Shown piece by piece: positions 2,702-64,000 of a stretch of 64,000 nucleotides of DNA. The notes under the pieces are model-generated. The model was not told the DNA's origin. It made no database searches and saw only the letters and a program-made list of their open reading frames with translations. The stretch's first letter is position 1; every line of letters begins with the position of its first letter. The translations under genes were made by a program, and so were the position numbers. The DNA comes from Rotaria socialis (lineage: Eukaryota), in the NCBI GenBank assembly GCA_905331295.1, contig CAJNYD010000033.1:186001-250000 (forward strand), given 5' to 3'.

Positions 2702-2854
2702 CTTTATAATGATCTGAAGTAAAATAGAATCAAATTTGTAGAAAGAACAGCTACATTAAATGAGTATAGAAAATACGCTGTTCTACTAAGAAGATAAAAA
2801 GATTGAACAGAAGTGTAGTTATGTTTTTTTAACTGTGTGCTGGAATTAAACAGC

Positions 2855-22181: not shown

Positions 22182-23184
22182 TCATTCTTGAATAGTAGCT
22201 GCCCATTTTTCATAGTTTTCTTTTTGCCGTTCCATTTCTCGATTAGTTAATTCCCACACATTAATTTCACTTGTTCTCGCATATGGCACTGGTCCATATT
22301 CTGGTGTCAAAGTTATCCATTTCCTATTCTTCTGTTCGTTCCAAACCATTTCCCACCATTTTTGCATTTGCTCACTTTCTTCCTTTGATTCCCGAGGATC
22401 ATCCACTTGTGCATGCTGAGTTGAGCCGACACGCGCATGAATATGATCAACTCTAGATGCAAATAGACGAAAACGTTCGTCATCAGTAGGATGTTGTAAA
22501 AGACGTTCACACACGACCGGAAAGTGGGAATAGTCAGCAGTTAGACGAAGAGTTGGGAATCGATTGACCATATCAGCAGTAACGAACGGATTGTAGAGTG
22601 CACGACTTCGGTGGGTCTGAAATCAATCAAATTTTAAAAAAAGAAACAAAATTTTTATGTAGGAAAAAAATTTCACGGCAGATCGACTAATATTAAGTAA
22701 GTAAAGAATCTCATAATTTTATTTATAAGTCAGATATGAAGCTCACTTCGTGTGATGATGTGATTTGAGGAAATTTTGCTTGAATTTCTAATGCTTTTTC
22801 AAAATATTCTTCTTTCTGTTTAGTTGACCATGAATCTTGTCCTCCTTGAATATTCACGTGTATAGGTTTGAACTGTATGAGTTCGTTTAATTGTTTTTCT
22901 AGATTAGCCAAATGCTCATCAATGGATAAATCATGCCATACATCCGGTTCAGAAGGATAGAAACTCGTGACAACAGTACCGATTAATTCGAGTTTGTGAT
23001 CATGTAAAGCTTGTTGAAAAACGTTGCTATCATTGTTTGAAAGACGTGCAATATCGCTCAGTGATGCTTCAATACCTGTATAGCCCAGTCGATGAAGTTC
23101 AGCAAAAAGAACATTAATATCGGCCGAAAACTGAGCTTCAATGCCCCAAAGAACACGAAAGATTTTTAATTGAGGTGCAGGCAT
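22182..23184 (-). CDS. Xylose-isomerase-like TIM-barrel sugar-phosphate isomerase/epimerase, bacterial-type; 2 exons (23184-22747, 22616-22182), ~290 aa
   Basis: Motifs GYTGIE, HVNIQGGQDSW, HE/THRSRALYNP, LTADYSHF, HIHARVG, TPEYGPVPY; a single 130-nt GT-AG intron joins the two ORFs in frame. Confidence 0.8.
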
Positions 23185-24037
23185 TGTTTGTGGGTAAGAA
23201 ACAAATTGTAACAGTATTTTATTAATAGATCTGCTATCGAACTAGCAAACACGATAAGAAGAAAAAAGATTGTTATCTTCCAACATTTAACTCAGTTCTT
23301 GAAGATTTCTCTTTTATAAAGGACGTGCAGTATGATTATGCTCGTTGTTTCGAGGCCGAAAGTCAGATTTTACACAATGAAGGATGGATTTTATTAGCTT
23401 TCTAAGTAGCCAACCTCTGTTTTTGAATCATTAATACAAGGCGCGAGTTTTCTATTCGCCCACACTACGATCCTCAAAAGATTAGCATAAAAGTGCTAAA
23501 TCACTTCTGATAATTTCCTCATAAATCATGATGACTAAGATTTTTATCTTCAAATTTTCTTTAGTCTTACAATTCTATTAAGTGAGCACGAAGGTGCATG
23601 TAAGGTGAAAATATGTAGCCAAAGTGTAGTACAGAGACGGCTAATAACCGCACTTACACTCAATAGGAGGTTCTTATTCTACGAGATGTTGATATAGAAC
23701 TTTTGTTGGTTTAATTAAGTGGCTATTAAATCCTGAAAGACTTTATTGAGAGTGCTAGATGAACTCAATAGGATCAAATCGTGATGATCTCGTGTAATTG
23801 AAAAACCTGCAAAAATTCTTTTATATTTATTTTTCCGAAATACTCGACAATTTGCTTACAGTAACTGAGTATTAAAACAGTATCAAATTAACGTTATGAT
23901 GCAAATCAAATTATATGCACTCCATTTGCGGTTCATATTAAAGGTCATTAAAAGCGTCGGTTTTGTTAGTATACTTTATTTTAATTAAATTGGTAAAAAC
24001 GAAAGGAATGTTTTATTTTTATTCCATCTGTCCATAG

Positions 24038-27000
24038 TTAACCATTGTCCTCATCAGATTCGTAATTCTTGTCGTTCCATTTTGGCTCAAAGTCCTTGGG
24101 TAATGCTTCAATATTAGATGGATATAACTTTTCATCATAAGATTCTTCATCAACCATTTTCCTACGAGCATAGTGCGAAACAAGAACATGTCGCACAATC
24201 ATCCAAGCTCGACGCTGTTCAGTTGGTGGAATATCGTTGCTACAAGCGTTCCCTGTGGTAGCGAGTTCATTTAGGTTATTATACCAATCGGGATGGTATT
24301 GACTATAATATTTTTGCAGTGGAGAGACATATTCATCGTCACCAATATACATTCTAGATGTCATCCAATACTGGTAGCAAAGCTTGAGAACTGGTGTGTG
24401 CTTTTTGTAATATGTTCTTCCGAAAAATGCCTCTGCAATATGATGAGGAGTCCCATGAACTACCATGAGCTGTGGTTTTGGTGGATTACAACTGCAACTA
24501 GCAGGTGCACATTCACACTGGTGCCATGGCTTCACTAGCTCTTCCTCATGGGGCTCTGGTCGGCTACACTTTGCACCACAGCCAGGACATCGACTTTGAC
24601 AACCGAGTTGTCGTGATATTCTCATTCTACATCCATTGTAAGCGTTCTTTTTCACATCTCTTGTCAATGCCACCACACGATCAGGAATCTTATCGAAGCT
24701 GTCCAGAAGCGTTTTGAAGCCTTGTTTAAAATTCATAAGACTGTGAATTGGTAGCGATATGATTCCTTTGAATGTAAACATATTGCCAACATTGCTTCCT
24801 AATAAGCCCTTATCAAGTATACTTTTTTCGATCTCATCAGCAATTAAACGGGCATTATTAAGTTGGCTTTGTTGCGCAGTATCATTAACGATATTGAACA
24901 CATCTATAATAAATTGTTCAGCATCCCGCATATACATGTAAATAACAGCTTCAAATTTTGTATTTATCTCACGAAAACTTAGTTCACGAAAATAACGATT
25001 GATATCCAAAACATACTTTAAAATTTTTTCTCCGTTGCCTTGTTCAAAACTTTCTTGATAGGCTTGATTTTGAACGGCATCATGATTAATAAATTGACTC
25101 CTTCCAATCTCTTCGGTTATATCATGCAGGATTTTATCAAGTAATATACGACCAGTTTCGTTAAAAATTTCTTCGCTCATAATGGTGGCCATATTTTTGC
25201 CTTGTTCAAATGAATTGTGCATGTGATCAATTTGAGTTTTCAGATTCTCTCGCCATGTTGCCAAATCATTACGTGCCTTTTCTATATCTTTCTCGTGACG
25301 ATGTTGTTCAGTTTTGATGATTTCTTCGATTAATTTTCTAAGAGCAATAACAGCAACATCCAACAGAAAATGATGTGGTACCAAGTGCTTTCGCTCATTT
25401 ACGATTATCTCGTTATTATAGAAATTTTGAATGTAAGTCAGTGTATGTGAAATGATACACGGATCTGAAGAACGTTGAGCTCGTATCATCTGAGTTATAT
25501 CATCACGCAGTTGAGGAAAGCATCCTTCGACAATCTTTAATAAACGTTTTTTGTGTTTATTATTGTAATGTTTCTCATGAAACCAAGATTCTACTTTACA
25601 ATAAAATAACTCCCATATTCTTTCTTCGTTCTCTTTATTACCATTATTTCCGAAAATATTTACAAGACGGCGCAAGAAAGAAATATTTGAAGGTTGTTTA
25701 GGTTGTGTGTAGCTTATAACACATCGATAGATTTCTTCCAACTCTTGCGAACGTTTTTGAAACTGATTAACGTCTAATGTGTGCAGTAAATTATAAACGC
25801 TCTGTGTGGTTGCGTTTGCAGCTTTTATACTTAAGTCTGAATTGTAAAACTTGATAACTCTCAACTCGATTTGATCTGGTGCCTCCGATTCTGATAGAAT
25901 TCTCTGCGTACATCTTTCAAGCTCCTCTTGATAGACCTTATTTATTCGAACTTGTAATTGTTCCGTGTTCAAATTTATGTTTCTATCGAATTCTTCCTGG
26001 ACAGCGCCGATAAGTCGATGTTGTGCATTCGAAACTCGTACATCATGAATTCTTTTATGTAAGGATTCTTCGAATTCCGCTCGTAACAACCCTTGAATAT
26101 TTAAAATGGGTGGCTCAATCAACTTTGCCACCTTTTCTTTGATTTCTGGTGGAAAGCAGCTGCGTTGCGTTTTTGAATTATAATCATTAGATGCTTCTTC
26201 CATAATATTTCTATGAGTAGTCTGCATCGCTGCGTAGAACTGAGTAGAGAAATGAGTGATATCCAATTGTGAACAATTATTAGGCGTAATTTCTGATAAT
26301 ATTTTAGTGATATGCTGTCTACCTTGATTGTGTATAACTATGATACAGCTTTCTGTAATGCTCCGTGCAATTTCTCGTAGTTCATTCTTCATAGAAAGTT
26401 CATAAAGTGTTTTGCATGCTAGTAAATTAGGGCCTAGATTATCAATTGCATCCCAGTTGCTAACGATCTTCTGGTACAATTGTCGTATATCATGATAGAT
26501 TTGACTACCAGTCTCAAATAAACTCATCGAAATTATCTTTCGTAGTTCATTAATTTTCATAGGAAATGTACGGTTGCGCCAGGTTTGTTCGATCTCCAAA
26601 ATAGAATTGTAATCACTAGAAAATGCATTTGGTAATAAAATAATATTCCGTTCATTGATTTCGAATTCGTCGTCAATCGATGATTTCAGAAATTTACAAT
26701 CATTGTATAAGTTTTCTTTAAACTTAGCAAGTTGTTTAATGAATATATCCATCGCATTAGTATCTGATTGATCACGCAAGATAAATAAGAGTTTTGGCTT
26801 TAGAGGAGATCGAATTTGTAGTTTTGCATAGAAACTCATGCCAACTAGATGCTCCAAATTAGCACTTAATTCACCTTTGTGATTAACAAGTACCATATGT
26901 GAAGTCAGCATTGCCATCGATACCATTTGATTATCAAATATTGAGCCTGACTCTTCAAGTGACAAAAGACCTTCTGTATCGAATATGACGATTGGATGAG

Positions 27001-29825
27001 ACTGCCAACGTACGACACTGAGGTACATACCAATAGTACATCTACCTGCACTGACGCGAAAGTTGCAACCAAACGTAGCATTCATAAGTGAGGATTTAGC
27101 TGAAGATTGTTCTCCAATAACTGTCAGTACGATAGGAGATTTGTTGAACGACTGATGCATGTGATTGAGAGATAACTGTATCAATTTACTGTGACACCGT
27201 AGAGGGCGCCCACGCAGAATGTGAAACGAAAATCCTTTGTACATAAGGTCGACAAACGTTTTGGCTAGTAGTTCTGATAGATTGTTAGACACAAAAAGCT
27301 TAGGAAGGTGCTCATAGAGTGCAAAAATTTCATCGCAAAATAAACCGATTGTCAAATCAATATTTGATAATTGATTTTCAATTTTAATAATTCGATGTTC
27401 ACGTGCTTTGTAATCCTCTTTTGCCAAGATAGTTTGATTGAGTATGTTTTCAACTTCAGCTTCATTACCTTTGTTAACATGTAGTGCACATTGTTCTTCT
27501 AGATGCTTAATACGAGACATAACGATATAAGCACCCTCCTTTTCTGCGTTTAATTGACTAAACAACGGTTTTTCATACTGAGCTCGCCATAATTCTAGAT
27601 ATTTTTCTGCTATCAATAGTTCGATGTATGGATGTTTTACAAGCAGATCAATAAAGAACATGGTATATTGAGGGATTTGATCGATAGATTGATATTGCTT
27701 TCGAATTTCCTCTAGCTGAACATTCAGATCAGCAGATGACTGCTCCCAAAGTTGAGATAATTCTTTTTCACATTTAAGTTTGGCACTTTCCAAATAGGTA
27801 ATAGGCGTAACAAGTTTTAGGTTATCCGTTTTATCGGACAATTTCTTAAATAGAGATTCAAGTGTTTGATGTATTTCAAACATATATAATGATGGTGGCG
27901 GAGCATTACCAGTCGATTTTATTTTTATGAAATGTGCTTGAATCATAAAAATTGATTCAAAATTCGATGGGGCACGTAAGACTGCAAGTGTGGAGCGGAA
28001 AGTTTCCATGAGACTATTTCGTAACAGTTTTAGTCGTCTTTCTTCATTAAATTTTGACTCTCTAATCGATTTACTTAATATAGGCGCTCTGATATAAAAC
28101 GTATTCAACCAATTTTCTTTGGCAAAAGCTTGCTGAAATGTTTCACAGGACGAGTTAGACTTTACGTCATATTTTGAATCAAAAACTACAACGATCGTTG
28201 GTTTCATCCTGGTTTCAGTCGAATAATTCATTGTTTTGAGCAGAAAATCTCGATTTTGTAAATCCGCTTCAGTTACAAAGAGAATCTGCATGGAAGAATA
28301 TTGCTGAATCGCAGTAATTAAATCTTCATTTATTGTAGTCATTGTGCCATGAATATCAAACACAATGTATGAATCAGTTTTTGTGAATGAAGCAAACATA
28401 GCATCAATACAGCTTGATCTAAATTGTAGATTTCCATCTGTATTCAACATCTCGCTTCGAATATTTTCAAATAAATATGGCAGAATACTTGTTTTACCAA
28501 GTCCAATAGATGTCGGACTGCCGAAGTACAATATAATGCGATCACTGGAAAAGCAAAAAGTTTCGGCAAGTGTGTTGAAATTAATTTTAAATTCTAATCC
28601 ATTCGTACCAAGTGTGTAATAAGCCAGTGGAATAGGTAAACCATTTTTACGAATCATATTTCCTAGAAATCTTTGACTATCAGAAGATAAAGATTCTATG
28701 GTACAAATAATTAATATATATTTAGTAATTTGTTCGATAATATCTAGAAATGCATCCATGGAACTATTCGTTCGGACTGCATTCAGACAGGAGGAGAGTG
28801 CATCCATAATATCAAATAGACTATGATAACGCTTCAAACTGTCAAGAATGTAAGATTTTAAAGAGCAAGAATGAGTAATATTGTGAAAAATAATTTCGCT
28901 AGTAATTGCTTCATCAATAATAATATTCAAATCAGAATCGAATCCATCTGATTCTGGTTTTATGCACATATAGCCAAATATTTTCTTGAAAATATCCAAA
29001 GCTCCGGCATTCAATGCATTCTGAATAACTTGGATATGTGTACTAGTCCATGGGTGGAGTAGTTCAGCGATATCAAGTCGAGTAACTTTGTGCTCGTGAA
29101 GTTCCCATTTACATTGAGCTTTTATGCCAGTACGAACTAGTCAAAATAGAATAATATTTTCTATGTTTCAAGTACTTCAATATCTATTACCTGATGAATA
29201 CATCTCGTTGTCCATAAGTTCAGAAAAAGAACTAGACGCGCTCAGATCAACCTAATTAATCACACAAGAAGACTATAATACATGACTCGATTTGCCCCTA
29301 CTTTCTGCAGGTATGTTTTAGAATTTTCAGGCAGATTGATCAGTGTCGATTGAGAAGTAATCAGTTTATTTTCTCTACTTATAAAGAAAGATATCAATTA
29401 AAAAATTTTTTGCTGATGCTAACCGTAGCTTTTTTCGTTCTTTGTTAAATAATAGTCGATCCTTGATGTTAGGTATAAGTTCTTTGATAGTTGTTTCATC
29501 GAAATCTTCGTCCATCAACACACCACCATCTATGGTGTTCTCTGATAAAACCGATACCGCCTCAATGATTATTAGTGTAAAACTTTTCGCAACAGAATAC
29601 TACCTTCAAACGCGGAAGCATACTGTTTCAGACCACACGAGCTTAACCATGTGGCAACATCCGACATTGACCAATTCACTGGATTGTGATTCACTAAATC
29701 TTAATCAAAATATAATTTACTAGAAATAAGGTATACTTTGAAAAATTGGATGTACCACTTATAGAAGAATTTTGTGTGATTGGCTTATCGTTCAGCGACG
29801 GTGTTACATTCATAAATTCATCCAT
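24038..29825 (-). CDS. SAM domain + interferon-induced very large GTPase (VLIG/GVIN1/URGCP)-like protein, ~1,840 aa, 6 exons
   Basis: The ~5.1-kb terminal exon (29136-24038) carries VIGEQSSAKSSLMNATFGCNFRVSAGRCTIG and FDTEGL (VLIG-type G motifs), LLFILRDQ, and a C-terminal GCQSRCPGCGAKC..H Cys/His cluster. Five small upstream exons splice in frame and encode PVNWSMSDVATWLSSCGLKQYASAFEENTIDGGVLMDEDFDETTIKELIPNIKDRLLF (SAM). Confidence 0.85.
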
Positions 29826-33944: not shown

Positions 33945-34511
33945 CAGGGTGGCCAGATCTTCTGAAAAATAGGGGAAAATTCTGAATTTTGAACATGTTT
34001 CTGATTTTTTCTGAATTTGGAATATATTGAGATCGCTGCTTTGTCACTGAAATTAGGTACGATTATAACCCATTACTATAATAAATCAATACTGTTTCAT
34101 CGATTTTCTCTATTAATCATCTTTATATTCCTCGTTCGACTTCCAAAAGATACGAAATATGAATAACAATACCGAGATGATGGGATTTAACATTTTTTTT
34201 CTCGTTGAAATTCTTAATCTACGCATAATGTATTTGATTTAGTTTTGCTCGTTTTTGTGAACGAGTTTTAAATTTAAAACGAAGCTCAACATTAAGTATC
34301 TTTTATTGATGTCTTTGTATTAGCTAAGCGATATATTCATTATATTGCCTTTCGTTTTATTGAAATATCTTTGAAATAAAATTCCAGTCAATGAACAGAA
34401 ACGCAGCAGAACTTTGGATGCCAGTATTTTAGCGAAAGATGTACGAATTTGCCAAAAACTGCCATTTTCAGATTAATTTCTGATTTTTCAATTTTTGATT
34501 TGGCCACCCTG
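33945..34511. mobile_element. Non-autonomous hAT-like element, 567 bp
   Basis: TIRs CAGGGTGGCCAGATC / GATTTGGCCACCCTG; perfect 8-bp TSD ATCCGCAC (33937-33944, 34512-34519). Confidence 0.92.
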
Positions 34512-34828
34512 ATCCGCACTCATATCTCTCTGTTTTATCCTTCTAATATTTGTTATAAATTAGATTAACCCATTATAATAGAGTTAAAAGAGAAAAAATG
34601 ATCATCAAATCTTATATATTAGTGATCAATGTTTAAAGTGTGATTAAAGAACAAAAAAAAAGTGCATGAATAGAACACGGTCTCTTATTCTCATTACCCT
34701 AAATCATTGTAGATATAACAAAAATAGAGAAGAATAAATAAACAAGCATAGATTAACCCACGGTGTAACAACAAAACAAAACAAAAAACAATAACGATTA
34801 TAGTTAAAATGAAATAAAAGCACAAAAA

Positions 34829-42004: not shown

Positions 42005-43146
42005 ATGGCTTCAAGGTTGATTGCTACAAGTCTTACATCAACAGTTAAACTTAATGATGGTGTAATTATGCCCTTATTTGGACTTGGAGTTTATCAAGTT
42101 GATAATAATTGTATGCGAGATTAATTTTTAAGATTAGAAAATTTGACTTGGAATTTTTTTTTTCAAGGTCCAGATGTAGTTGCTGCAGCTATTAATCAAG
42201 GTTATCAATTAATTGATACAGCTGAATTCTATGCAAATGAAGATGGTGTTGGTAATGGAATAAAACAAAGTGGAATAAAACGTGAAGATATTTTTATCGT
42301 TTCAAAATGGTGGCCATCGTCTGAAGGAGCGAAAGGTGTAATCAAAACTCTTGATACCTGTTTACAAAGGTTTCTTAGAAAACAATCTTTTAGTGTATTT
42401 TTTTCTAAAATATTCTTTGTAGTCTTCAGTCGAGCTATGTTGATTTATATCTTCTTCATGCACCACAAGGTCGCCATTGTGCTGAAGCTTATCGAGCATT
42501 AATTGAAGCAAAAAAGCAAGGAAAGATAAGGTAAGAATAGTTTAATGAGTCATTAGCTTTTCGATTATTTTCAAATATGATAGATCTTTAGGCGTTTCGA
42601 ATTTTGGTGTAGTCCATTTAAAAGCTTTGGCTAAATTAGGTCTTGAGAAACCATCAGTTAATCAAATTGAACTTCATCCATGGCAACAGAAAGAAGATAT
42701 TGTTAATTATTGTCGTGAACATAATATTGTTGTAATGGGCTATTCGCCGTTGGCCAAAGGTCAAAAAATTCAAGATAAAACTATCGGTGGTATTGCAAAC
42801 AAGTAGAATTACTCCTTTAAAAAAAGCATAAGCATAGGAATTATGTATGAAATTTTATTTTAGACTATCAAAAACTCCTGCACAAGTATTAATTCGTTGG
42901 TCTGTTCAACATGGATTTATAACGATTCCTAAGACATCGCAAAAGTCAAGACTTCAATCAAACGCAGATGTATTTGACTGGTCAATTCCCGATGAAGATA
43001 TGAAAGTATTGGTAAGAGAATAAAATTAATCTTATTCTCTATTGATTTAAAGGTGTATATATATATAGGATGCACTTGGTAATACTCCGTGGTCATGTAC
43101 ATGGGATCCAACACATAATAGTTTAAAAGAAGCTGGTCTCGAATGA
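42005..43146 (+). CDS. Aldo-keto reductase (AKR5-like, 2,5-DKG/glyoxal reductase type), 6 exons
   Basis: MPLFGLGVYQ, IDTAEFYANE, IFIVSKWW, DLYLLHAP (D-Y-K-H tetrad intact), SLGVSNF, NQIELHPW, YSPLAKG, IPKTS; stop at 43144-43146. Confidence 0.9.
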
Positions 43147-43898
43147 TTTAAAGCAATCAATGGTTGTGCTTTCTTTTCAAATCATTAAACATTGTATTTT
43201 CTTTTCTTTTGAACTAAAGATTGCAGTGGATTGACAGTGTTTTAATTAAAAATCTAATAGTTTAAATTATTCAATCAGAGATGAATTTATTTTGATAACA
43301 TTGCGTAAGATGCTCTTTTCATTTACAAGGCCAAAAATAAGTTACATCATACTAAAGGTCTTATCTTTTTTTCTTTGTATTCTAATAGTACGCTAAAAGG
43401 GACTTCAGTGAAAGTAACATATTGTTGTTAATATCAACCGGATGCTTCAATGAATTTAGATCAAAGTAATATAATAGAAAAAGTGTCCTATATAGAAAGA
43501 TTAGCATGGTGCTCTCTCTTCAAGATTGATTTTATATCAATTACTTAAGCTCGTTTTCATGATTTTTAGTGATTCATGTAATAGCTTTCAACATACAATG
43601 AGACTTAGAATCACTATCGAAACCTAACTTTTTTAGTCGCAATTTTAAGATAAGAACAAAAAAGCTTTACGCTTATTCGAGGTGTGCGAAGTTTAAAAAT
43701 ATGACAATGAGCCGATATCAATAATTACATTTCAACCAATTGAAATAAATGTAAAGCGCGCCAAATGTTTAGTAGATTCCTACAATACAATAAGATATTT
43801 ATTTTAAGGAAACTTATCTGTTTGTTGACGCAGGTGATGTTCTTTGCTATTCCAATGCATATAAAGACAAAAATTTTGTATAAAAAACTATTATTAAA

Positions 43899-46376
43899 AT
43901 GGGTAGTTCTAAGCATAATTATTCCATTGATCAATGCGACCATAACAATGAAGAAAATGATGTTCATAGCACTAATTGGTGTAACAAATTCAATCAAATA
44001 TGGGAACGTAGCGATTATCTTTTTGGTTTATTACGCTCATCCGATGATTTTTATCGGCAACCGATTAAATTAAGATTGCCCTTGTTATTTTATCTTGGTC
44101 ATTTACCGTGTTTTACTTGGGCACAACTGCAACATTTAGATGGTGTGAATAAAATTATTGATGCTTTATTCGATAAACTTTTTCAACGTGGCGTTGATCC
44201 AAATGTGCTAACAGGTGTTGTGAATCATGGACATTCAAGTAGATTTTCAATTAATGATGAAATAGAGAAAGAATATTGGCGAAGTTTTAGCGTTCAAAGT
44301 GTCGAGGAGTATAAAATCAAAGTACGTTCTGAAATTAAGAATGTTCTCATGAATGGTGATCTTAAATTTGATGACTTGAATGCTTTAAATGTATTGAATA
44401 TTGCTGTAGAACATGAAATGATGCATCAAGAAACATTAATATATTTATTTGCTCAATTACCGATTGAAGCATTTCGATCGGATATCAGCAATGAGAAAGA
44501 TCTTCGACGACTTTGTGATGTTACGTCACCTTTACCAGAAAATCTTTGGATACCATTGCCAGGAGGACAATTATCATTGGGAAAACCATACAGTGAACAA
44601 TTAGCAACATATTCATTTGGTTGGGATAATGAATTTCCTAGTGAACCAACATATGTTCCAAATTTCGAACTACAATCACATCCAGTTCGTATCGGTGATT
44701 TTCTTCAATTTGTCTTAGATAATGGCTATACAACAAAACAATGGTGGGATGACGATGCTTTTGAATGGATTACTGAAACAAAACTATCTCATCCAACATC
44801 ATGGAGTTATGATAATTCGTATCGTGTAAATTTCGTATTACAACGTGATATACCTATTGAAATTGTGCTTGATCATCCTGTTATTGTTAGTCAAATTGAA
44901 GCCAAAGCTTATTGTCGATGGTTATCAAATAAGACTGGTTCGGAAATTGATTTACCAACTGAAATCGAATGGGTTTATGCTATGTGGGATTGGTCAAAAT
45001 GCATACCTTTGGCTTTAGCGAGTGGTACTCATAATGCTAATTTTCGTCATTTACATACAGCACCCATAAATGAGGGAACGAATAAAAGTTTACAATGGCA
45101 AGGATCGGCATTTGAATGGACTTCAAGTATATTTCGACCATTTACAGACTATCGTGGAAGTCTTCCTACTTATCCGGGTTATTCTGCAGATTTTTTTGAT
45201 GACAGTCATTTTGTACTATTGGGTGGTTCGTTTGCTACTGATTTAAAATTAATTCGACGAACATTTCGTAATTGGTATCAAGATAAATATCGATATGTAT
45301 TTGCAACATTCAGATGTGTTAAACGAAATGCACATACTGATCATCCCTTAACAACAGCTGATCATGAAAAAATTGTTAGATTATTAAGTAATTCAAATCA
45401 TCGTACAATTCCATCGGAATATTTCTACGATGCACAAGGTTCAGCTATTTATGAACAAATAACTTCACTGGATGAATATTATCTCTATAATCAAGAATTA
45501 AAATTGTTAGGAAAACGAGCTGATGATATCAGATCGACAATTCTTCAACATTCGAATATTCACAATCGTTCATCACCGTCTAATATTCATATTATTGAAC
45601 TTGGTTGTGGTGATGGTAGTAAAGTTGAAACATGGTTATCACCATGGATAAAATCAAAGGAAAATATTTCGGTTATTTATCATCCTGTTGATATATCAGA
45701 ACATGCCATTGATTCGCTTGTTCAACGGTTACAAAAAACAATGGGCGAAGATATTATTAAAGAACATGTCAATCCTATATGTTCAACATTTGATAAGATG
45801 TATACACATCTTAACAGCAACGAAATGGAAGTACAAGTTGTTATGTTACTCGGCAGTACTATTGGTAATTTCGCTTCGTATGATTCCAATCATATTAAAT
45901 TTGGCGAAAGTTCACCTGCTATGAAACTAGTTCGTTCGGTTCGATCGAATTTGAAAATTGGAGATTGGTTTATTTGTGCATTTGACCTCTGCAAGGCTAC
46001 AAAAACAATGATTCAAGCATATAACGATCCGAAAGGTATTACTGCAGCGTTCAATTATAATCTCTTAATTCGCCTCAATCGTGAATTAAACTTTAATTTT
46101 AAAATCACAAATTTTCTACATTATGCAACATTTAATCCTCTATTACAACAAATGGAAAGTTGGTTGATTAGTACAAAACAACAAACAGTTAGTGATCAGA
46201 ATGGTTTTTCATTGGAATTACAAGCTTATGAAGCCATACAAGTTGAAGTATCTGCAAAATATACTCCTCACGATATTCAAACATTGATAAGTAATAATTC
46301 TTTTAAAATTATCGAATGCTATACAACAGATGATCATTATTTGCCTTATGCTTTGTGTATGGCACAAGCAGTCTAA
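43899..46376 (+). CDS. Intronless ergothioneine-biosynthesis fusion: N-terminal EgtB/Egt1-type Fe(II) sulfoxide synthase (DinB_2 + FGE-like) plus C-terminal EgtD-type histidine N-methyltransferase (Methyltransf_33)
   Basis: 825-aa ORF. EgtB half: RLPLLFYLGHLP, FQRGVDP, EHEMMHQETL, FGWDNE, YPGYSADFFD, LGGSFAT, FRNWYQ. EgtD half: IPSEYFYDAQGSAIYEQITSLDEYY, IIELGCGDGSK, YHPVDIS, LGSTIGNF, AYNDPKGITAAFNYNLLIRLNREL, EVSAKY. Confidence 0.88.
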   Translation: MGSSKHNYSIDQCDHNNEENDVHSTNWCNKFNQIWERSDYLFGLLRSSDDFYRQPIKLRLPLLFYLGHLPCFTWAQLQHLDGVNKIIDALFDKLFQRGVDPNVLTGVVNHGHSSRFSINDEIEKEYWRSFSVQSVEEYKIKVRSEIKNVLMNGDLKFDDLNALNVLNIAVEHEMMHQETLIYLFAQLPIEAFRSDISNEKDLRRLCDVTSPLPENLWIPLPGGQLSLGKPYSEQLATYSFGWDNEFPSEPTYVPNFELQSHPVRIGDFLQFVLDNGYTTKQWWDDDAFEWITETKLSHPTSWSYDNSYRVNFVLQRDIPIEIVLDHPVIVSQIEAKAYCRWLSNKTGSEIDLPTEIEWVYAMWDWSKCIPLALASGTHNANFRHLHTAPINEGTNKSLQWQGSAFEWTSSIFRPFTDYRGSLPTYPGYSADFFDDSHFVLLGGSFATDLKLIRRTFRNWYQDKYRYVFATFRCVKRNAHTDHPLTTADHEKIVRLLSNSNHRTIPSEYFYDAQGSAIYEQITSLDEYYLYNQELKLLGKRADDIRSTILQHSNIHNRSSPSNIHIIELGCGDGSKVETWLSPWIKSKENISVIYHPVDISEHAIDSLVQRLQKTMGEDIIKEHVNPICSTFDKMYTHLNSNEMEVQVVMLLGSTIGNFASYDSNHIKFGESSPAMKLVRSVRSNLKIGDWFICAFDLCKATKTMIQAYNDPKGITAAFNYNLLIRLNRELNFNFKITNFLHYATFNPLLQQMESWLISTKQQTVSDQNGFSLELQAYEAIQVEVSAKYTPHDIQTLISNNSFKIIECYTTDDHYLPYALCMAQAV

Positions 46377-48600
46377 CAGCTCAAATCTATCTCTACATTT
46401 TTATTAGCTTTTTTAGTTTTGCTGCTTTAATCATATTTTATTGTTTTGTTGTTTATTTTCTTGGCAATTTTGTGTTTATAATAGAATTAAAATAAAGATA
46501 ATTGACTTTGTTTTATTGTTTCTCTTTTGAACTTAAATAAATAATCATGGTAGACATAAAATAACGTGAATAAAATTATTGCTAGAAAGAAAATCTAGAA
46601 TTATTTACTCTCAGAGGACATATCAATAATAGAGTTATCACGATAATGAAATCTTGTTTTCAAATCCGACGCGATGAAAATTTACTTTATAAGACACAAA
46701 ATATAGTTTACAAATCTTCAATCTGATACAATTGGGGACACATACGTCTGCTCTCCCAGTGAGTATTAGCAATTTGTATTTTCATTATAATGATTTTTCT
46801 GTATGGTTTTACATTCATTTTCATCATGTTGAAGAAAGGATTGATGCAACATTAGATAATATTGTCTTACGCCTATAACTGAGATTTTGAGTGCAAATAC
46901 TGGAATATAGTCGCCATTCTTCGTATACGTCAAATCCACGTTCAACTCTCAATATCACTAAATTAAGATGATTGGAAAGAAAAATGCTTGTGTTCAATGT
47001 TGTGTGTCATCTTATGAAAAGACAGTCGTTCATCTTTGAATAACTATTTTCAATTTGTTTATATGAAGAAATCAAATTAAGATTATTTGGTAATTTCAAG
47101 ATCATCAAAACGATGACATCATTTTGTACTAATAGGATGACAAGTATTTTAATATTCATAATCGAAGAGATGTAAATAACATTTTCTACGCGAAAACTAT
47201 GAATGGGCAAATGTAATCTTGTATTTTAATTATTTAATACTTACAGCGTAGCTAAAACTTTAGTGAGGTTAAATGATTTTATTTTCATTCTTATTTTACT
47301 AAAACAAAGTATTAACTATATTTTTTTTTGATTATTCCGTACATACGATCCAAATCAACGAATGTTCTTGCTATTATTTTCTGTCGTTAGCGTTGAATAT
47401 TACTGACGGAAAGAACGTATTTTTGCTCTACGTGATATTGTCGTTCTTTGACGCTTTGTTGGAAATAGTTTTTTGGACCTTTATTCAATTTTTCTAATGT
47501 ACTCTGCTCTTGATTTTATGTAAGTACTCGTGTTACAGAAAAAGCAAGGGAGAACAGTACAGATGCTCGTTGCAGGCAAATAATCTTTAACGTAATCTCC
47601 AATATTTGCGTTTCACAAGCTCAAATATTGTAATAAGATATCGCGCTTTTGCTCTTTTATGCGGTGCAATCTATCTTTAAACTATTTCTTTTCGTGTAAT
47701 TTTGAGTGAATAGCTAAAGAAATAAGACTAAAAACAAAGATATTTCTGTTTATATTCATATTATATGAAAACCATATTTGAATATGCATGTATTCGTAAT
47801 GAGACGAAACTTTTTCAAGCATGATTCATGAAAAAATGACTCAATTGAATTATTTCAACATCATCTTCTAACATGTACATTGTTAGGAAAGGCTTGAAAC
47901 TTTAAAAACTCTTGAAAATGTTTTACAAAAATCATTAAAACATCACTTAGCACGTACATAAATGGAAAACTGGTTTTTCGATTTTTCTGTAGAGAAGATA
48001 AAAAGAGTATTTAGATAAGTGAGTGCAACTTTGTCAGCTTTGCAACGACCGTGAATAGGTATGACTGCCAATGATAGTGAAGAAAGAAAGAAAAAATACT
48101 GATACTCATCACATCTGCGTATCGTCAGATCCTATTGGCACAAATTAGCTACTCAGAAAACACTATTTTTTCGCTATGTATTGGTTTATGTGACTTTTCC
48201 GATGTTAACAAGTCCAAATTATACTTTGAATTTTCGTATTCATTTGATGGCTTCAGGATTTTGGTTTTATGTGTTATTTAGAAAAGCAGCCCAGAATCGC
48301 TTTTCATTTTTCTGTAGCAACGAGCAGTATAGCTACAGCAGTAGTTTCTGTACTGGCTAACTGATAAAAATCACTGAATTCTAGTACATCCATTCTATAT
48401 CCGAACTGAATTTCTGTCAACTTCATAGAATATTAAAAAGAATTTACTTTTCAAAACGATAGTTGAGTCTTTATTATAGTTTGTTCTTTGTTTGAAGAAA
48501 AAGTTATCAAATAAACACTGTTATTTACATGAAATGTATATGTATATATCTATTTACAGAAAATAAAACTGACGCGACTAGTGAATGAATGGTCTCTTGT

Positions 48601-50605
48601 TTATTGACACTCTGGTCGATATTGAATGTATTGATTGAGACGATATGGAAGTTCACGTGTAATATCTTCAATTTTACCATTTACTTGATTTAGATAATGA
48701 TTTATTAGACGACGACAAATTGATTTTAAATTTAGTTCATTCGGTAATACAACGATTGAAACCTGTAATTCTCTTCCATCATTATTTTTTGTTGTACAAA
48801 ATGCCATTCGTGATGATGAAACGGAAAAAATTGGCGTCAAATAATTTCTACACATATGCCACGGACATACATGCGATATATGTTGCGTATATATACGATG
48901 AAGTCGTTGGAGACTATTTGATTGATATACATCAAAATAACTGATAGGTAATGTTTGTCCACAATGGCAATGATTATCCGCAAATGTTAATATTGTATAC
49001 ACACTATCACGTGTGTATAAAATTGATAAAAGTTGAAAACCATTATCAATTTGAATACTTTGATTTTTACATACTGACCATGAATGTACATTCATTAAAT
49101 ACAAATATGATCCAGCCAATTGTTGACGTAATTGAATAGCCTGAATTTGTACTTTATTTGAGCCACCGGGTGTCAATGCTGTTGTATTATAATTGATGAG
49201 AGTTGTTTCTGTTTCAGTTGAATAAGTATAAAGAATTAAACAGGATGACCAATAGTTTGGACAAAATTGAAACAATGCTTTGACATCAATTGGAACGATT
49301 CGACGATATAGTTTAGCTTCTTTTCTCACAACTAGACAGAGAAAAAAAGCAGATTTTGAATATTCGATGTCTATTAAGCATTGAAGACTAAAACAAGTTT
49401 TTGTCTTATTTTTTTCACTTCTGTGAGTTTGAAATTGAGAATCAAAAAAATGTTATCATAACGAAATAGGTCAAGGATAAAACGTTGTAATCTTTCTCTA
49501 TGGAGACTTTCCGAAAAATTTCTAATTCAGATAATGAATTTCAACAATTCTATGCTAACGTCGACAAGTGTTGTTGTATTTAATATTAATTTATTATATT
49601 CGATGCTAACATCGAAGCACAATAAGTTGAGTTTTTTGTATTTCAGTACTCTAATCTTAAAAAAGCATAACATTTTTCTATGAGCTAAAAATAATTTTAT
49701 AATGAGTATTTCTTGAACTAATAATTAGTTAATAAACAAAATCAGTTTCATTTCAAATTATATCTTTTATATGGCTGTCACGTATCTCTACCTACATATT
49801 TGTTAATCTAACCAATAGCTATTTCATCTATGTAATTATCAGGATAAATTTCTGTTCGAATGAAAAATCCTTTTTTTTAATACTTTTATAAAAATCCAAT
49901 GCAGCTCTTCCTCCAACCATCGGTACACGTATAATAACTTGTGTTTTATCCATAGACCAAGCAGCGTGAACTTTTTTCGCATCAACTAAACCATTATAAT
50001 CGTCGCCTAATGCGCAAACATAACGATTTAATTTTAAATCAACAATAATAAATTTTGTTTTTTCCAAAACAACTGAATAAATTAATAGCATAATCGTATC
50101 ACTATGATCTAAGCCAGACATTGAACAACCATTAATAAGCCCATGTACAGAATAATTCTGCAATGAACTAATCATTGCTGGTATATGATTATATTCAAAA
50201 TGTTCACGTAATTTTTTAATTTTTGTTGATTGAAAATTTTTCGACGACGATCGATATGCACCATGATAAAGTTTATGTGATAAAGATTCTGAACAAAAAC
50301 CAGGTGCACACACACTGTGCAGTTCGGAAGTACAAATAAATTTATGTCGAGGAAAACCAAATGATTCTATAAAAGACATTGATACCAATTCTATTTTCAA
50401 TTTAGGAAATTTTCATTTTACCAGCAACACCATTCAACCAATCCGAATGTGAACATCGACTAATTTCTTGCCAACCGTTATAATTCATTGTTTTCTTCTT
50501 GATTGAAAATTTATTCTTTATCGATGGTCGCCATGTTGGATTATTATTATTATTTACAGTTGATAATGTTAAATTAGAGTGATCTTTAGAATTATGTATG
50601 CCCAT
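48601..50605 (-). CDS. SOCS-box-containing protein of unknown function, 3 exons
   Basis: In-frame splices ...NGVA|ESFGFP... and ...DFYK|IVRKEAK...; C-terminal LNLKSICRRLINHYL...ELPYRLNQYIQY fits the BC-box/Cul5-box pattern; MGIHNS start fits an N-myristoylation consensus. Confidence 0.7.
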
Positions 50606-51955
50606 ATTAATGTTTGTTTCTGTTTACTGCTTTTGATTAGATTTCTATATTCAAGCTAAAAGAAAGCAAATAAAATGCTATCTTTTAGAATACACTGAAT
50701 AGAATTAAAACACGTATATGATTATTAAGACGACGCAATTAATCGGATGGATACAAACAAAAGAAGCAAAAAGAAGACAGAGCTCATTACTGGGGATTCT
50801 GTTTACCTGAAATATTTGAATAAGAAAAAAGCAATATCTAAGAGAAAACTTTTCTTCATCAAGCAATAGAGCAAAAATACAAAGACCATTTTATGTTGAT
50901 AATTGAATCATTCATTTAGAATCTAAGTCTATCGATCATGATATAACATACAACAAGATAAGTCATCACGTGAAGAGTAATGCGTGTAATTGATTTTATT
51001 ATTTGTATAGTCAATTGATTCTCATCGCATTTTTCCCTACATGCAAATAATCTAGTATGACGATCATTTAGCGTATTACGGTACTTGATCACTAAATCAT
51101 GAAGAAAAATAATGCAATAAATGATTGTTTTCATTTGAATAAAGAGCTCATCATGGTTAACAGACCTCAAATGACGGTTTGACTATATAGAATGTATATA
51201 TTAATGTAGAAATGAGTAGGACTTCACTTCATGCTCCAGACTTTTTCAACAGATAAGAATCCTGTCATTGTAATTTATTGTTTTAGAACTTACACAATAT
51301 TTTAACATGCTCGACTTTTCCTACTGTCGAAATTCTATATAGGAAATAAAAAACGCAAATATATTTTATTTCTATATTTATAGTTTTTACTGACTAACCG
51401 AAAAGCAATGCGACAACGATAAGCCGTATTCATTCAGTTGACGCTCACCTACATACCTTTATCTTTTAAAAAATAGTTCGAGTTCTCTTTCTTTGTCGAG
51501 TATTTCGTTCTTACTATAAATCAATTCAATCGATCATAATACTCTTCTCAGTTTTATTCGTATATAAAAATAGTCATTCCAATGCCGTTTTTCTCTTCGC
51601 AACAGAGATAATATTCCGTTCGAGTCGTTACTATCACCGCCGCCTCCTCTCTTTTTTTTTCTCTCCGTCATTCCATCATCTGACAGATGAATCAACTACT
51701 TCTTTCACTTAATCATATTTTCCTTGTTTCATTTTCTTACAGAACGAGAAAGAATATAGTCGTAATCATCAACATTCGACATTCTTGTTTTTTTCTATTT
51801 TTAGTCTTGCGATGATAAAAGATTAAAGGAAGAAAAAAAGTGAAATATTTCACGAGGTCTGTCTGCTGATCTAAAGTATTCTAGATGATTGTTAGAAAAA
51901 AAATGTAAGGTTATAATAGAAAACAAAAAGACATGTGTTTGCTGAAAACTAAAGG

Positions 51956-53403
<1,448 letters not shown>

Positions 53404-63059: not shown

Positions 63060-64000
63060 TCATTCGAAAAAAGTGTCCCATATGATCATTTTTATTTTTA
63101 TGAAATGTATTCCAATTTGGAATACATCGTTGTAAAAGGGTGAAAGACCTATATCTGATTTTTCAATTTGTTCTAATCGTTTCTTTATATATCTTTTTAC
63201 ACATTCTTCTAATGACTCTCCATTTGTTATTTGAAGAAGATCTGTTGCTCGAGCAAAGGGACAGGAAAGGGTAGAAAGGAAATATCCAGGCAAAATATGG
63301 AAAAGTGAAAGCAAAGAAACATCTTCGTAAAACATCGGTTGAGAGAGTTTTACTACTTTTCATCCATCTTAATTTACTAAACGTTCTTTGAATGTTTTAA
63401 AGTGTTTTGTCTATCGTTGGTTTCAAAGACATCTTATTTGTTCAAGTAAAACCAAGATATTTACATTCTTTAACTATTTCTACTTTTTTACCTTCCATAC
63501 AGATATAAACTACTGAATTTTGTACTTGAGAGTGAAAAACCTGCACTACGAATTTTGAGAAATTAACTGGTTGTTTCCATTCTTGGAGCAATACGCTATT
63601 TTATTACATATTTTTGTTCTTTCTTCTTCTAAAAACTTAATCATCGGCTTAACTCCTCGACATGTAGGTGGGGATATTAGTACGTTGAGATCATCAGCAA
63701 AAATATGACTTGAAAAGGCACTTAAACATGTAACAAGATCACTATGGTAGACAATGAAAAGATAGGGACTTAAACTACTGCCTTGTGGCAAACCAATGCG
63801 AGTTTTAAGTATTTTCGATTTATTCTCTCCAAATATAACATGCACTCGGCGATCATTCAACCACAAAATAATTAATCTCAATAGTCCTAAGGGTATACTC
63901 ATTATAATGAGTTTAACAGCAAGACCTTTATGCCATACTTGACTGTATGCCTTTTGATAGTCAACATAGACTGCTAGTGTTGGAATATTTGGAGTCATAT
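63060..64000 (-). mobile_element. Decayed non-LTR retrotransposon (LINE) reverse-transcriptase fragment, continues beyond the window
   Basis: VYVDYQKAYSQVWH, GLPQGSSLSPYLF, HIFADD, then a frameshift and KYLGFT* (premature stop near 63445); antisense to the host gene. Confidence 0.88.

What the first reader, a model, noticed from the sequence alone, without database searches (positions are those of the whole stretch)
43899..46376. Animal-genome ergothioneine biosynthesis gene: EgtB-EgtD fusion in reverse order to fungal Egt1
Seen: an intact intronless 825-aa ORF between ordinary intron-containing genes, with host-like AT content. It retains the three Fe-binding His (LGH at ~44100; HEMMH at 44412-44426), the YPGYSADFFD and RNWYQ motifs, and a full SAM-binding EgtD-type domain (~45350-46373). 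Established: ergothioneine is made by bacteria and fungi, and animals are considered to obtain it from diet. Fungal Egt1 has the methyltransferase first and the sulfoxide synthase second. Animal OvoA shares the order seen here but has a different methyltransferase family and different motifs. Inference: a horizontally acquired bifunctional enzyme making hercynine and then hercynylcysteine sulfoxide, giving de novo ergothioneine (or selenoneine) as an antioxidant relevant to desiccation/radiation tolerance. No C-S lyase (Egt2/EgtE) is visible in the window.
Basis: partly seen in the sequence, partly recalled or inferred. Interest (0 to 1): 0.92.

Follow-up and report, generated by a model that had tools for sequence, protein, structure and literature searches.

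The report
Rotifer gene for making ergothioneine
Bdelloid rotifers carry and express a two-in-one enzyme gene, likely picked up from a microbe, that is predicted to make the antioxidant ergothioneine, which animals are thought to get only from food.

Summary
Observation confirmed. 43899-46376 (+) is an intact, intronless 825-aa ORF: a non-heme-iron sulfoxide synthase followed by an EgtD-type methyltransferase. It is a real host gene. One polyadenylated RNA contig covers 43890-46515, a 12.6-kb DNA contig joins it to its neighbours, and orthologues occur in Rotaria and Adineta with dN/dS 0.26-0.44. The active site matches the hercynine-binding EgtB-IV motif at 9 of 10 residues and fails OvoA's histidine-binding and SenA's selenosugar residues. 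EgtD's histidine-binding residues are kept. Best reading, activity untested: it makes hercynine, then hercynylcysteine sulfoxide, and a host PLP enzyme releases ergothioneine (about 70%). Corrections: the B-then-D order is not unique, since protists share it (Plasmodiophora, Pyxidicula, Flabellula, Mantamonas), some with a PLP domain fused in front. Their methyltransferase groups with the bdelloid one, apart from fungal Egt1 (100/99). The donor is unresolved, no lyase was found, and no desiccation link was tested. Ten paper searches found no report of this gene, but Gerdol 2019 could not be read.

The parts
43860..43865 (+). TATAAA, 30 bases before the 5' end of the RNA contig; likely core promoter (a second TATAAA at 43879)
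   Evidence: Sequence. The contig starts at 43890; contigs cannot prove a start site.
43890..46515 (+). Unspliced polyadenylated transcript of the gene
   Evidence: Run X8, one 2645-nt contig, 0 gaps, 3 other letters, followed by 18 A that are not in the genome. X8 shows spliced joints at neighbouring genes and no cover in the flanking intergenic bins.
43899..46376 (+). 825-aa ORF: sulfoxide synthase (EgtB, type-III-like) fused N-terminally to an EgtD-type histidine methyltransferase
43980..45329 (+). Sulfoxide synthase domain (aa 28-477; DinB-like helices plus FGE fold)
   Evidence: phmmer to OvoA 8KHQ E 2e-45 and to EgtB-IV 8VIG E 3e-44. Foldseek TM 0.77 normalised to 8VIG.
44073..44102 (+). 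R59, Y65 (cysteine-binding R62/Y68 of OvoA-Th2) and H68 (first iron ligand)
   Evidence: Alignment; roles from PMC10696552 passages; columns.
44187..44216 (+). Lid loop RGVDPNVLTG; its G-x-D-P-x3-T-G form is shared with protist B-D fusions
   Evidence: 21 of 26 bdelloid, 7 of 16 other B-D fusions, 2 of 63 D-B fusions, 5 of 60 stand-alone, 0 of 16 bacterial-genome, 0 of 8 OvoA.
44412..44432 (+). H172-x3-H176-x-E178 iron-binding motif
   Evidence: HX3HXE described in PMC8433421 passages.
45171..45182 (+). Catalytic Y425 (equivalent of OvoA-Th2 Y406) and Y428 (F in OvoA)
45270..45278 (+). N458-W459-Y460, the hercynine-binding motif (NWF in EgtB-IV, (Y/F)AF in OvoA)
   Evidence: Motifs from PMC11030361 passages.
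45366..46358 (+). EgtD-type SAM methyltransferase domain (aa 490-820)
   Evidence: Methyltransf_33; Foldseek TM 0.87-0.88 to EgtD 4PIP/4PIO. EgtD Y39, Y56, T163, N166, Y206, T213, N217, E282, S284 and K286 are kept; F47 is Y and M252 is S (numbering read alignments, columns).
46491..46496 (+). AATAAA polyadenylation signal, ending 19 bases before the poly(A) site
42300..43252 (+). Upstream neighbour: spliced aldo-keto reductase gene (3' part); context only
   Evidence: Four GT-AG joints in runs X12 and X14; Pfam Aldo_ket_red.
48595..48822 (-). Downstream neighbour exon, conserved next to the orthologue in an independent metagenome contig; context only
   Evidence: L140 4246-4473 matches at 87% aa identity in the same orientation.

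Best explanation
This is an expressed bdelloid rotifer gene, likely acquired horizontally before Rotaria and Adineta split, whose two-domain product is predicted to carry out the first two steps of ergothioneine synthesis. Inferred mechanism: the C-terminal EgtD-type domain would methylate the alpha-amine of histidine three times with SAM to give hercynine. The N-terminal domain would bind Fe(II) through H68/H172/H176, hold cysteine with R59/Y65 and hercynine with N458/W459, and use O2 and Y425 to join sulfur to imidazole C2, giving hercynylcysteine sulfoxide. An unlinked host PLP enzyme, or free PLP, would then release ergothioneine. The donor was probably a microbial eukaryote of the lineage that fuses these domains in the same order. 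Shown: ORF, transcript, genomic linkage, conservation, residues. Inferred: substrates, product, last step, donor.
For: Host gene: polyadenylated unspliced RNA contig; a second organism's RNA-like run X12 covers the orthologue at about 95%; a 12.6-kb DNA contig spans 41979-52500; A. vaga orthologue on a 13.9-Mb contig; downstream synteny in L140; dN/dS 0.26-0.44 in 10 of 10 domain comparisons; bdelloid clade 100/100 in both trees. Chemistry: 9 of the 10 specified residues of the EgtB-IV composite motif are met, against 7 of 11 for OvoA, with all four OvoA misses in the histidine-binding part. 20 of 24 full-length bdelloid-clade clusters keep R59, Y65, the His triad, Y425, N458 and W459. Even OvoA switches to C2 (ergothioneine-type) coupling when given hercynine, and the fused methyltransferase would supply it. 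A dedicated lyase is not strictly needed: S. pombe lacking egt2 still makes some ergothioneine, and A. fumigatus egtA alone suffices in S. cerevisiae. Origin: the methyltransferase lies in a 100/99 group with 8 of 8 protist-type B-D fusions and 11 stand-alone EgtDs, apart from fungal and acidobacterial ones; AU p 0.045 against grouping with fungi.
Against: No enzyme assay and no metabolite data. All NCBIfam scores are below cut-off: OvoA N-term 239/400, EgtD 217/291, EgtB 193/360, SenA 183/420. OvoA is the top-scoring model, top PDB sequence hit and top Foldseek hit (whole-chain TM 0.5, rmsd 17). EgtD M252 is Ser here, and M252/E282 are the positions engineered to change EgtD specificity (4PIP title). 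No solved type-III enzyme was among the PDB hits. The sulfoxide-synthase backbone is unresolved: AU p 0.29 with OvoA and 0.18 with fungi; the methyltransferase with acidobacterial EgtD gives p 0.11. No lyase was found and no genome was available. 4 of 24 clusters have lost catalytic residues.
Confidence: 0.7

Rival explanations
1. The enzyme works but the pathway stops short or ends elsewhere: the animal makes mainly hercynine (a betaine osmolyte) or accumulates the sulfoxide, or the methyltransferase takes another amino acid.
For: No lyase found. Second copies in R. sordida and R. sp. Silwood2 (P0019, P0013) lost an iron ligand but keep the full methyltransferase motif. M252 is Ser.
Against: Both domains of this copy are under similar purifying selection. 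E282, N217 and T213 are kept, and Ser at 252 is shared by 10 of 18 other B-D fusions and 17 of 19 stand-alone EgtDs of the same group. Cleavage can be non-specific.
Confidence: 0.14
2. It is an OvoA-like enzyme making a 5-thiohistidine (ovothiol-type) product, possibly N-alpha-methylated like ovothiol B or C.
For: OvoA is the best family and structure hit; the AU test does not reject a sister relation; bdelloids are reported to hold a horizontally acquired OvoA (PMC8433421 passages).
Against: 13 of 14 OvoA proteins could be read at the motif: 11 have YAF and 2 FHF, none NW; 14 of 14 have F where this protein has Y428. The C-terminal domain matches none of 14 OvoA methyltransferase domains (best E 0.013). 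The gene lies outside the OvoA clade. The reported bdelloid OvoA is said to come from Gammaproteobacteria, so it is likely another gene.
Confidence: 0.07
3. Its main product is selenoneine.
For: S. pombe Egt1 also makes selenoneine when selenium is supplied.
Against: The SenA motif xNEH--HRHxHYYN(F/Y)(F/Y)R is not met: L60, Y65 and D100 stand where SenA has N, E and H; SenA model 183/420.
Confidence: 0.03
4. Same chemistry, different origin: an independent fusion of a bacterial egtB-egtD operon, or an ancient eukaryotic gene kept only in bdelloids. This competes with the donor claim, not with the function.
For: 74 of 80 bacterial loci have egtB directly before egtD; bacterial B-D fusions exist (L112, L113; Atlas clusters). 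11 unnamed stand-alone EgtDs sit in the same methyltransferase group. Related genes occur in fungi, amoebae, Rhizaria, Mantamonas and a sponge transcriptome.
Against: 0 of those 80 loci is fused and their EgtD falls on the other side of a 100/99 split. The lid-loop form is shared with protist fusions and with 0 of 16 bacterial-genome copies. The gene is intronless among intron-rich neighbours, and no other named animal is among the 120 rows listed in each.
Confidence: 0.35
5. Contaminant or misassembly.
For: Intronless; no long reads were laid.
Against: Contig linkage, poly(A) tail, host-like GC3, orthologues in two genera, synteny.
Confidence: 0.01

Closest known systems
Fungal Egt1 (N. crassa Egt1, S. 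pombe Egt1, A. fumigatus EgtA; type III sulfoxide synthase)
   Same: One polypeptide with an EgtD-type methyltransferase and a cysteine-using sulfoxide synthase; the same R/Y/His-triad/Tyr/N-aromatic residues as the D-B fusions collected here.
   Different: Opposite domain order; methyltransferase only 23-25% identical and not sister; different lid loop. The named fungal enzymes themselves were not in my alignments; P0104 (Blastocladiella) and its clade stood in.
Cyanobacterial EgtB-IV (PDB 8VIG, 8VIH)
   Same: OvoA-like scaffold with a hercynine-binding NW motif; 9 of 10 motif residues; TM 0.77.
   Different: Stand-alone enzyme, 24-26% identity, NWF rather than NWY; no EgtB-IV sequence was in my trees.
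OvoA (PDB 8KHQ; animal and bacterial ovothiol synthase)
   Same: Sulfoxide synthase first, methyltransferase second; R62/Y68/His triad/Y406 equivalents kept.
   Different: Histidine-binding (Y/F)AF and F409 absent; unrelated methyltransferase family.
Mycobacterial EgtD (PDB 4PIO, 7SCF) and EgtB-I (4X8B)
   Same: EgtD fold and ten substrate-pocket residues kept; NW motif shared with EgtB-I.
   Different: Fused; F47Y and M252S; lacks the EgtB-I xSDH/RR motif for gamma-glutamylcysteine.
Uncharacterised protist EgtB-EgtD and PLP-EgtB-EgtD fusions (Plasmodiophora CEO98147.1/XXQ33320.1, Pyxidicula, Flabellula, Mantamonas, unnamed P0242/P0243/P0029)
   Same: Same order, lid loop, Ser at EgtD 252; best whole-protein hits outside bdelloids; 28-37% identity per full domain.
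   Different: Several carry an N-terminal ACC-synthase-like PLP domain that the bdelloid gene lacks; none has been assayed as far as my searches show.

Membership tests
[quoted passage not shown] | DinB-like plus FGE fold, three-His iron triad, catalytic Tyr | tested here: met
   H68/H172/H176 and Y425; fold matches. The Pfam DinB_2 model itself was not hit.
Ergothioneine sulfoxide synthase, EgtB-IV motif RxYH--DxHxHYxNWFx | Composite motif, 10 specified residues | tested here: inconclusive
   9 of 10 met; Y460 for F (F in several orthologues). My mapping of motif positions to residues is read from alignments; the paper's figure was not visible.
Type III / fungal Egt1 | Lacks the RXXR motif, uses cysteine | tested here: inconclusive
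   The EgtB-I motif is absent and cysteine-binding R59/Y65 are present; substrate use not assayed.
Type III / fungal Egt1 | Methyltransferase N-terminal to the sulfoxide synthase, in the fungal clade | tested here: not met
   Order reversed; outside the fungal clade in both trees; AU p 0.045 for the methyltransferase, 0.18 for the synthase.
OvoA | Histidine-binding F and (Y/F)AF residues | tested here: not met
   Y428 and N458-W459-Y460.
OvoA | C-terminal N-pi methyltransferase; TIGR04344 above 400 bits | tested here: not met
   Methyltransf_33 instead; no match to 14 of 14 OvoA C-domains; 239 bits.
SenA / OvsA | xNEH--HRH selenosugar-binding motif; NF041186 above 420 bits | tested here: not met
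EgtB-I and EgtB-II | xSDH...RR (I) or xSHHYYRR (II) motif | tested here: not met
   against 3 EgtB-I and 25 EgtB-II-like rows that did show xSDH or mostly xSHH.
EgtD histidine N-alpha-trimethylase | Methyltransf_33 fold, SAM motif, histidine-binding Y56, N166, Y206, T213, E282, S284 | tested here: met
EgtD histidine N-alpha-trimethylase | TIGR03438 cut-off of 290.9 bits and Met252 | tested here: not met
   217 bits; Ser754. Protist relatives also score just below the cut-off.
Complete aerobic ergothioneine pathway | PLP C-S lyase (EgtE, Egt2 or OvoB-like) in the genome | tested here: inconclusive
   None in the window or six bdelloid-like loci; one database search blank; no genome held.
Complete aerobic ergothioneine pathway | Measured formation of hercynine, the C2 sulfoxide and ergothioneine | not testable with these tools
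   Needs enzyme assay and LC-MS.

The most novel reading that the evidence does not exclude
Bdelloid rotifers are animals that make their own ergothioneine, through a protist-derived EgtB-EgtD fusion fixed early in the class. They would finish the pathway with a resident PLP enzyme, and together with their reported OvoA would hold both thiohistidine antioxidants as part of their desiccation and radiation defence. The donor lineage has an undescribed three-in-one lyase-synthase-methyltransferase.
Probability: 0.5. Interest if true: 0.88.

Novelty: new variant of a known kind. Interest (0 to 1): 0.74.

Why it matters
Reviews state that ergothioneine is not synthesised by plants or animals (PMC7653990, abstract start in the listing). 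A conserved, expressed synthase in a whole animal group would be an exception. It would give a way to ask what ergothioneine does for an animal by knocking out synthesis rather than diet or transporter, in a group whose radiation and desiccation tolerance is attributed partly to antioxidant protection (my own knowledge). It also points to an overlooked protist family, including PLP-EgtB-EgtD proteins that may hold the whole pathway in one chain. The surprise is tempered: bdelloids carry thousands of foreign genes (abstract in the listing), an OvoA transfer into them is already reported, and the chemistry is of a known kind.

Tried and rejected
No whole genome is held, so no genome-wide search for a lyase, OvoA or transporter was possible. 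Gerdol et al. 2019 is not held. Viral contigs: no relative with the alignment and no locus with P0267. Search for a split-off PLP domain with P0242 aa 20-405 among shorter proteins: 1 unnamed hit among 6023 candidates; this word-based search is weak and shows no absence. The run search listed no holder on record as RNA; RNA status of X8, X10, X11, X12 and X14 is inferred from spliced joints and the poly(A) end. Small-share runs were not used except X12 and X14, which were laid. AU tests that did not reject: synthase with OvoA (p 0.29), synthase with fungi (p 0.18), methyltransferase with acidobacteria (p 0.11); the groups were named after I had seen the FastTree results. The grouping of the bdelloid synthase with P0242/P0267/P0282/P0283 (92/91) is not starred and involves rows of odd composition, so I do not rely on it. 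59 of 74 bacterial egtB-egtD pairs lie in one frame; I treat this as a ranking artefact of tblastn. tblastx E-values are inflated by summed segments; only the 87% L140 match was used. Earlier scan findings: none. Supplement searches for ergothioneine terms were blank: PMC3499245 (9 files), PMC10809525 (1 short file), PMC12220480 (1 file), PMC11258130 (one search left 4 of 16 files unsearched, with other terms, left 1). These tables may list the gene under a bare identifier.
Full report
Observation. The ORF is as described: 43899-46376 (+), 825 aa. Pfam gives FGE-sulfatase at aa 217-475 and Methyltransf_33 at aa 490-820, but no DinB_2 hit. NCBIfam models for OvoA, EgtD, EgtB and SenA all match below their cut-offs. 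The AlphaFold model from a 21-row alignment has mean pLDDT 78.6. It matches EgtB-IV (TM 0.77) and EgtD (TM 0.87-0.88), while the top E-value goes to two-domain OvoA with a poor global fit.

Host. The protein's 90% cluster has 18 members; of the 15 listed, the 14 with names are Rotaria socialis or R. magnacalcarata, so the window is a Rotaria bdelloid (inference). In one search (294 hits among 6058 candidates, 120 listed) the top 28 rows are 56-93% identical. Nine are named: R. magnacalcarata, R. sordida, R. sp. Silwood1 and 2, Adineta vaga, A. ricciae and A. steineri; 19 are unnamed metagenome or Logan proteins. Identity then drops to about 35%. No other named animal is among the rows listed.

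It is a host gene and is expressed. In run X9 one 12,639-base DNA contig spans 41979-52500. Run X8 behaves as RNA: it skips the introns of the cysteinyl-tRNA synthetase gene and is empty between genes. Its one contig on this gene covers 43890-46515 without a gap and ends in 18 A absent from the genome. AATAAA lies at 46491 and TATAAA at 43860. Run X12, from another organism and study, covers the orthologue from 44271 to 46498 in four pieces and shows the spliced upstream aldo-keto reductase. Metagenome contig L140 (74% orthologue) keeps the same downstream neighbour; the other five bdelloid-like loci (L141-L145) showed no convincing match to the window's flanks. dN/dS is 0.26-0.44 in 10 of 10 domain-by-pair comparisons.

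Sulfoxide synthase. PMC11030361 (passages) classifies these enzymes by a composite motif and reports that hercynine-accepting members have an aromatic residue where histidine-accepting OvoA and OvsA have Ala. [quoted passage not shown] The window protein reads R59, Y65, H68, D100, H172, H176, Y425, N458, W459, Y460: 9 of 10 for EgtB-IV, 7 of 11 for OvoA. OvoA-Th2 uses R62 and Y68 for cysteine, H71/H162/H166 for metal and Y406 for coupling (PMC10696552 passages); all have counterparts. Of 14 OvoA proteins above the family cut-off, 13 could be read at the motif and none has NW. The residue set is that of fungal-type D-B fusions and of acidobacterial relatives, so I call it type-III-like. 20 of 24 full-length clusters in the bdelloid clade keep the whole set.

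Methyltransferase. EgtD binds histidine with Y39, Y56, N166, Y206, T213, E282 and S284 (PMC8593015 passages). Counting along the alignments, all are kept, with T163, N217 and K286 (the label 'Y55' in that output is EgtD Y56). F47 is Tyr and M252 is Ser, the latter shared with most protist fusions. The domain does not match OvoA's methyltransferase.

Last step. No lyase was found in the window or related loci, and no genome could be searched. This is a gap but not fatal. S. pombe egt2 deletion leaves residual ergothioneine, attributed to PLP or unrelated PLP enzymes (PMC4020840 passages), and A. fumigatus egtA alone yields ergothioneine in S. cerevisiae (PMC9502471 passages). In bacteria egtE and ovoB sit beside only 6.2% and 4.4% of these genes (PMC13674229, part 1 of 5).

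Origin. The best whole-protein relatives among 1.84 billion representatives are B-then-D fusions. Named ones come from Plasmodiophora, Pyxidicula, Flabellula and Mantamonas; Rhizamoeba has PLP-EgtB. P0030, P0242 and P0243 carry an N-terminal PLP domain, and that of P0243 is closest to ACC synthases in the PDB. In the methyltransferase tree (52 of 131 rows) bdelloids, 8 of 8 protist-type fusions and 11 unnamed stand-alone EgtDs form one side of a 100/99 split, away from fungal, other D-B and acidobacterial sequences. AU p is 0.045 against fungi and 0.11 against acidobacteria. In the synthase tree (63 of 471 rows) bdelloids are one clade (100/100) outside the OvoA and fungal clades, on an unresolved backbone; AU p is 0.29 and 0.18. 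The lid-loop form is shared with protist fusions. Among 80 bacterial loci none is fused and 74 have egtB before egtD, while other bacteria do have B-D fusions. A microbial-eukaryote donor is the best reading (about 60%), not a shown one. One acquisition before Rotaria and Adineta diverged follows from monophyly.

Literature. Ten searches listed no paper on ergothioneine synthesis in rotifers. PMC8433421 (passages) cites Gerdol et al. 2019 for a bdelloid OvoA from Gammaproteobacteria; that paper could not be read and might mention this gene. I also saw passages only of PMC13342648, PMC12071650, PMC9103826 and PMC13547098. Main-text term searches of PMC10809525 and PMC11258130 were blank, as were the supplement searches listed under Tried and rejected. 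The supplement of PMC11030361 was listed but not read. Most subscription papers are outside the library.

Verdict. A real, expressed, conserved bdelloid gene, probably an ergothioneine synthase (0.7). It is not a member of OvoA, SenA, EgtB-I, EgtB-II or the fungal Egt1 clade, but it is predicted to work like Egt1. New variant of a known kind; interest 0.74.

Noticed in passing
P0030, P0227 (Plasmodiophora brassicae), P0242, P0243; P0261 (Rhizamoeba), P0304; P0267, P0282: Fusions of a PLP domain (ACC-synthase-like in P0243) with EgtB, with or without EgtD, in orders PLP-B-D, PLP-B and D-PLP-B: candidate single-chain ergothioneine pathways with a new type of C-S lyase. Plasmodiophora has a PLP-B-D and a B-D gene with consecutive accession numbers.
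   Followed up: partly
P0013/P0232-P0234 (R. sp. Silwood2), P0019 (R. sordida), P0024: Second bdelloid copies have lost an iron ligand (H172Q in 4 of 4 cluster members; H176Y) yet keep the methyltransferase motif, beside an intact first copy in the same species: possible narrowing to hercynine synthesis. P0024 is decayed in both domains.
   Followed up: partly
P0028, P0235-P0237 (Adineta steineri): The protein ends at 487 aa, right after the sulfoxide synthase domain, in 4 of 8 cluster members (the rest are shorter): a split gene, a truncation or an annotation artefact.
   Followed up: no
P0280 (EukProt, Oscarella pearsei): A stand-alone type-III-like EgtB with an RNWFQ motif in a sponge transcriptome; a second animal case or a symbiont sequence. 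No EgtD domain.
   Followed up: no
L001-L080: Acidobacteria widely carry a type-III-like egtB directly before egtD (74 of 80 loci kept), although type III is described as fungal in PMC11030361.
   Followed up: partly
window 22182-23241 (-): Two ORFs without Pfam hits that read like exons of a sugar-isomerase-type barrel protein (recalled resemblance); possibly another foreign gene.
   Followed up: no
window 24038-28969 (-): Single-exon 1643-aa URGCP-like very large GTPase.
   Followed up: no
window 296-5746 (-): Two tandem FAD-linked oxidase genes (FAD_binding_4 plus FAD-oxidase_C).
   Followed up: no
window 33945-34513: High-copy repeat, depth about 20-40 times the flanks in DNA runs.
   Followed up: no
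window 63546-63998 (-): Reverse transcriptase fragment at the window edge.
   Followed up: no
window 48601-52250 (-): Transcribed genes without Pfam hits; the exon at 48595-48822 is 87% conserved in L140.
   Followed up: no
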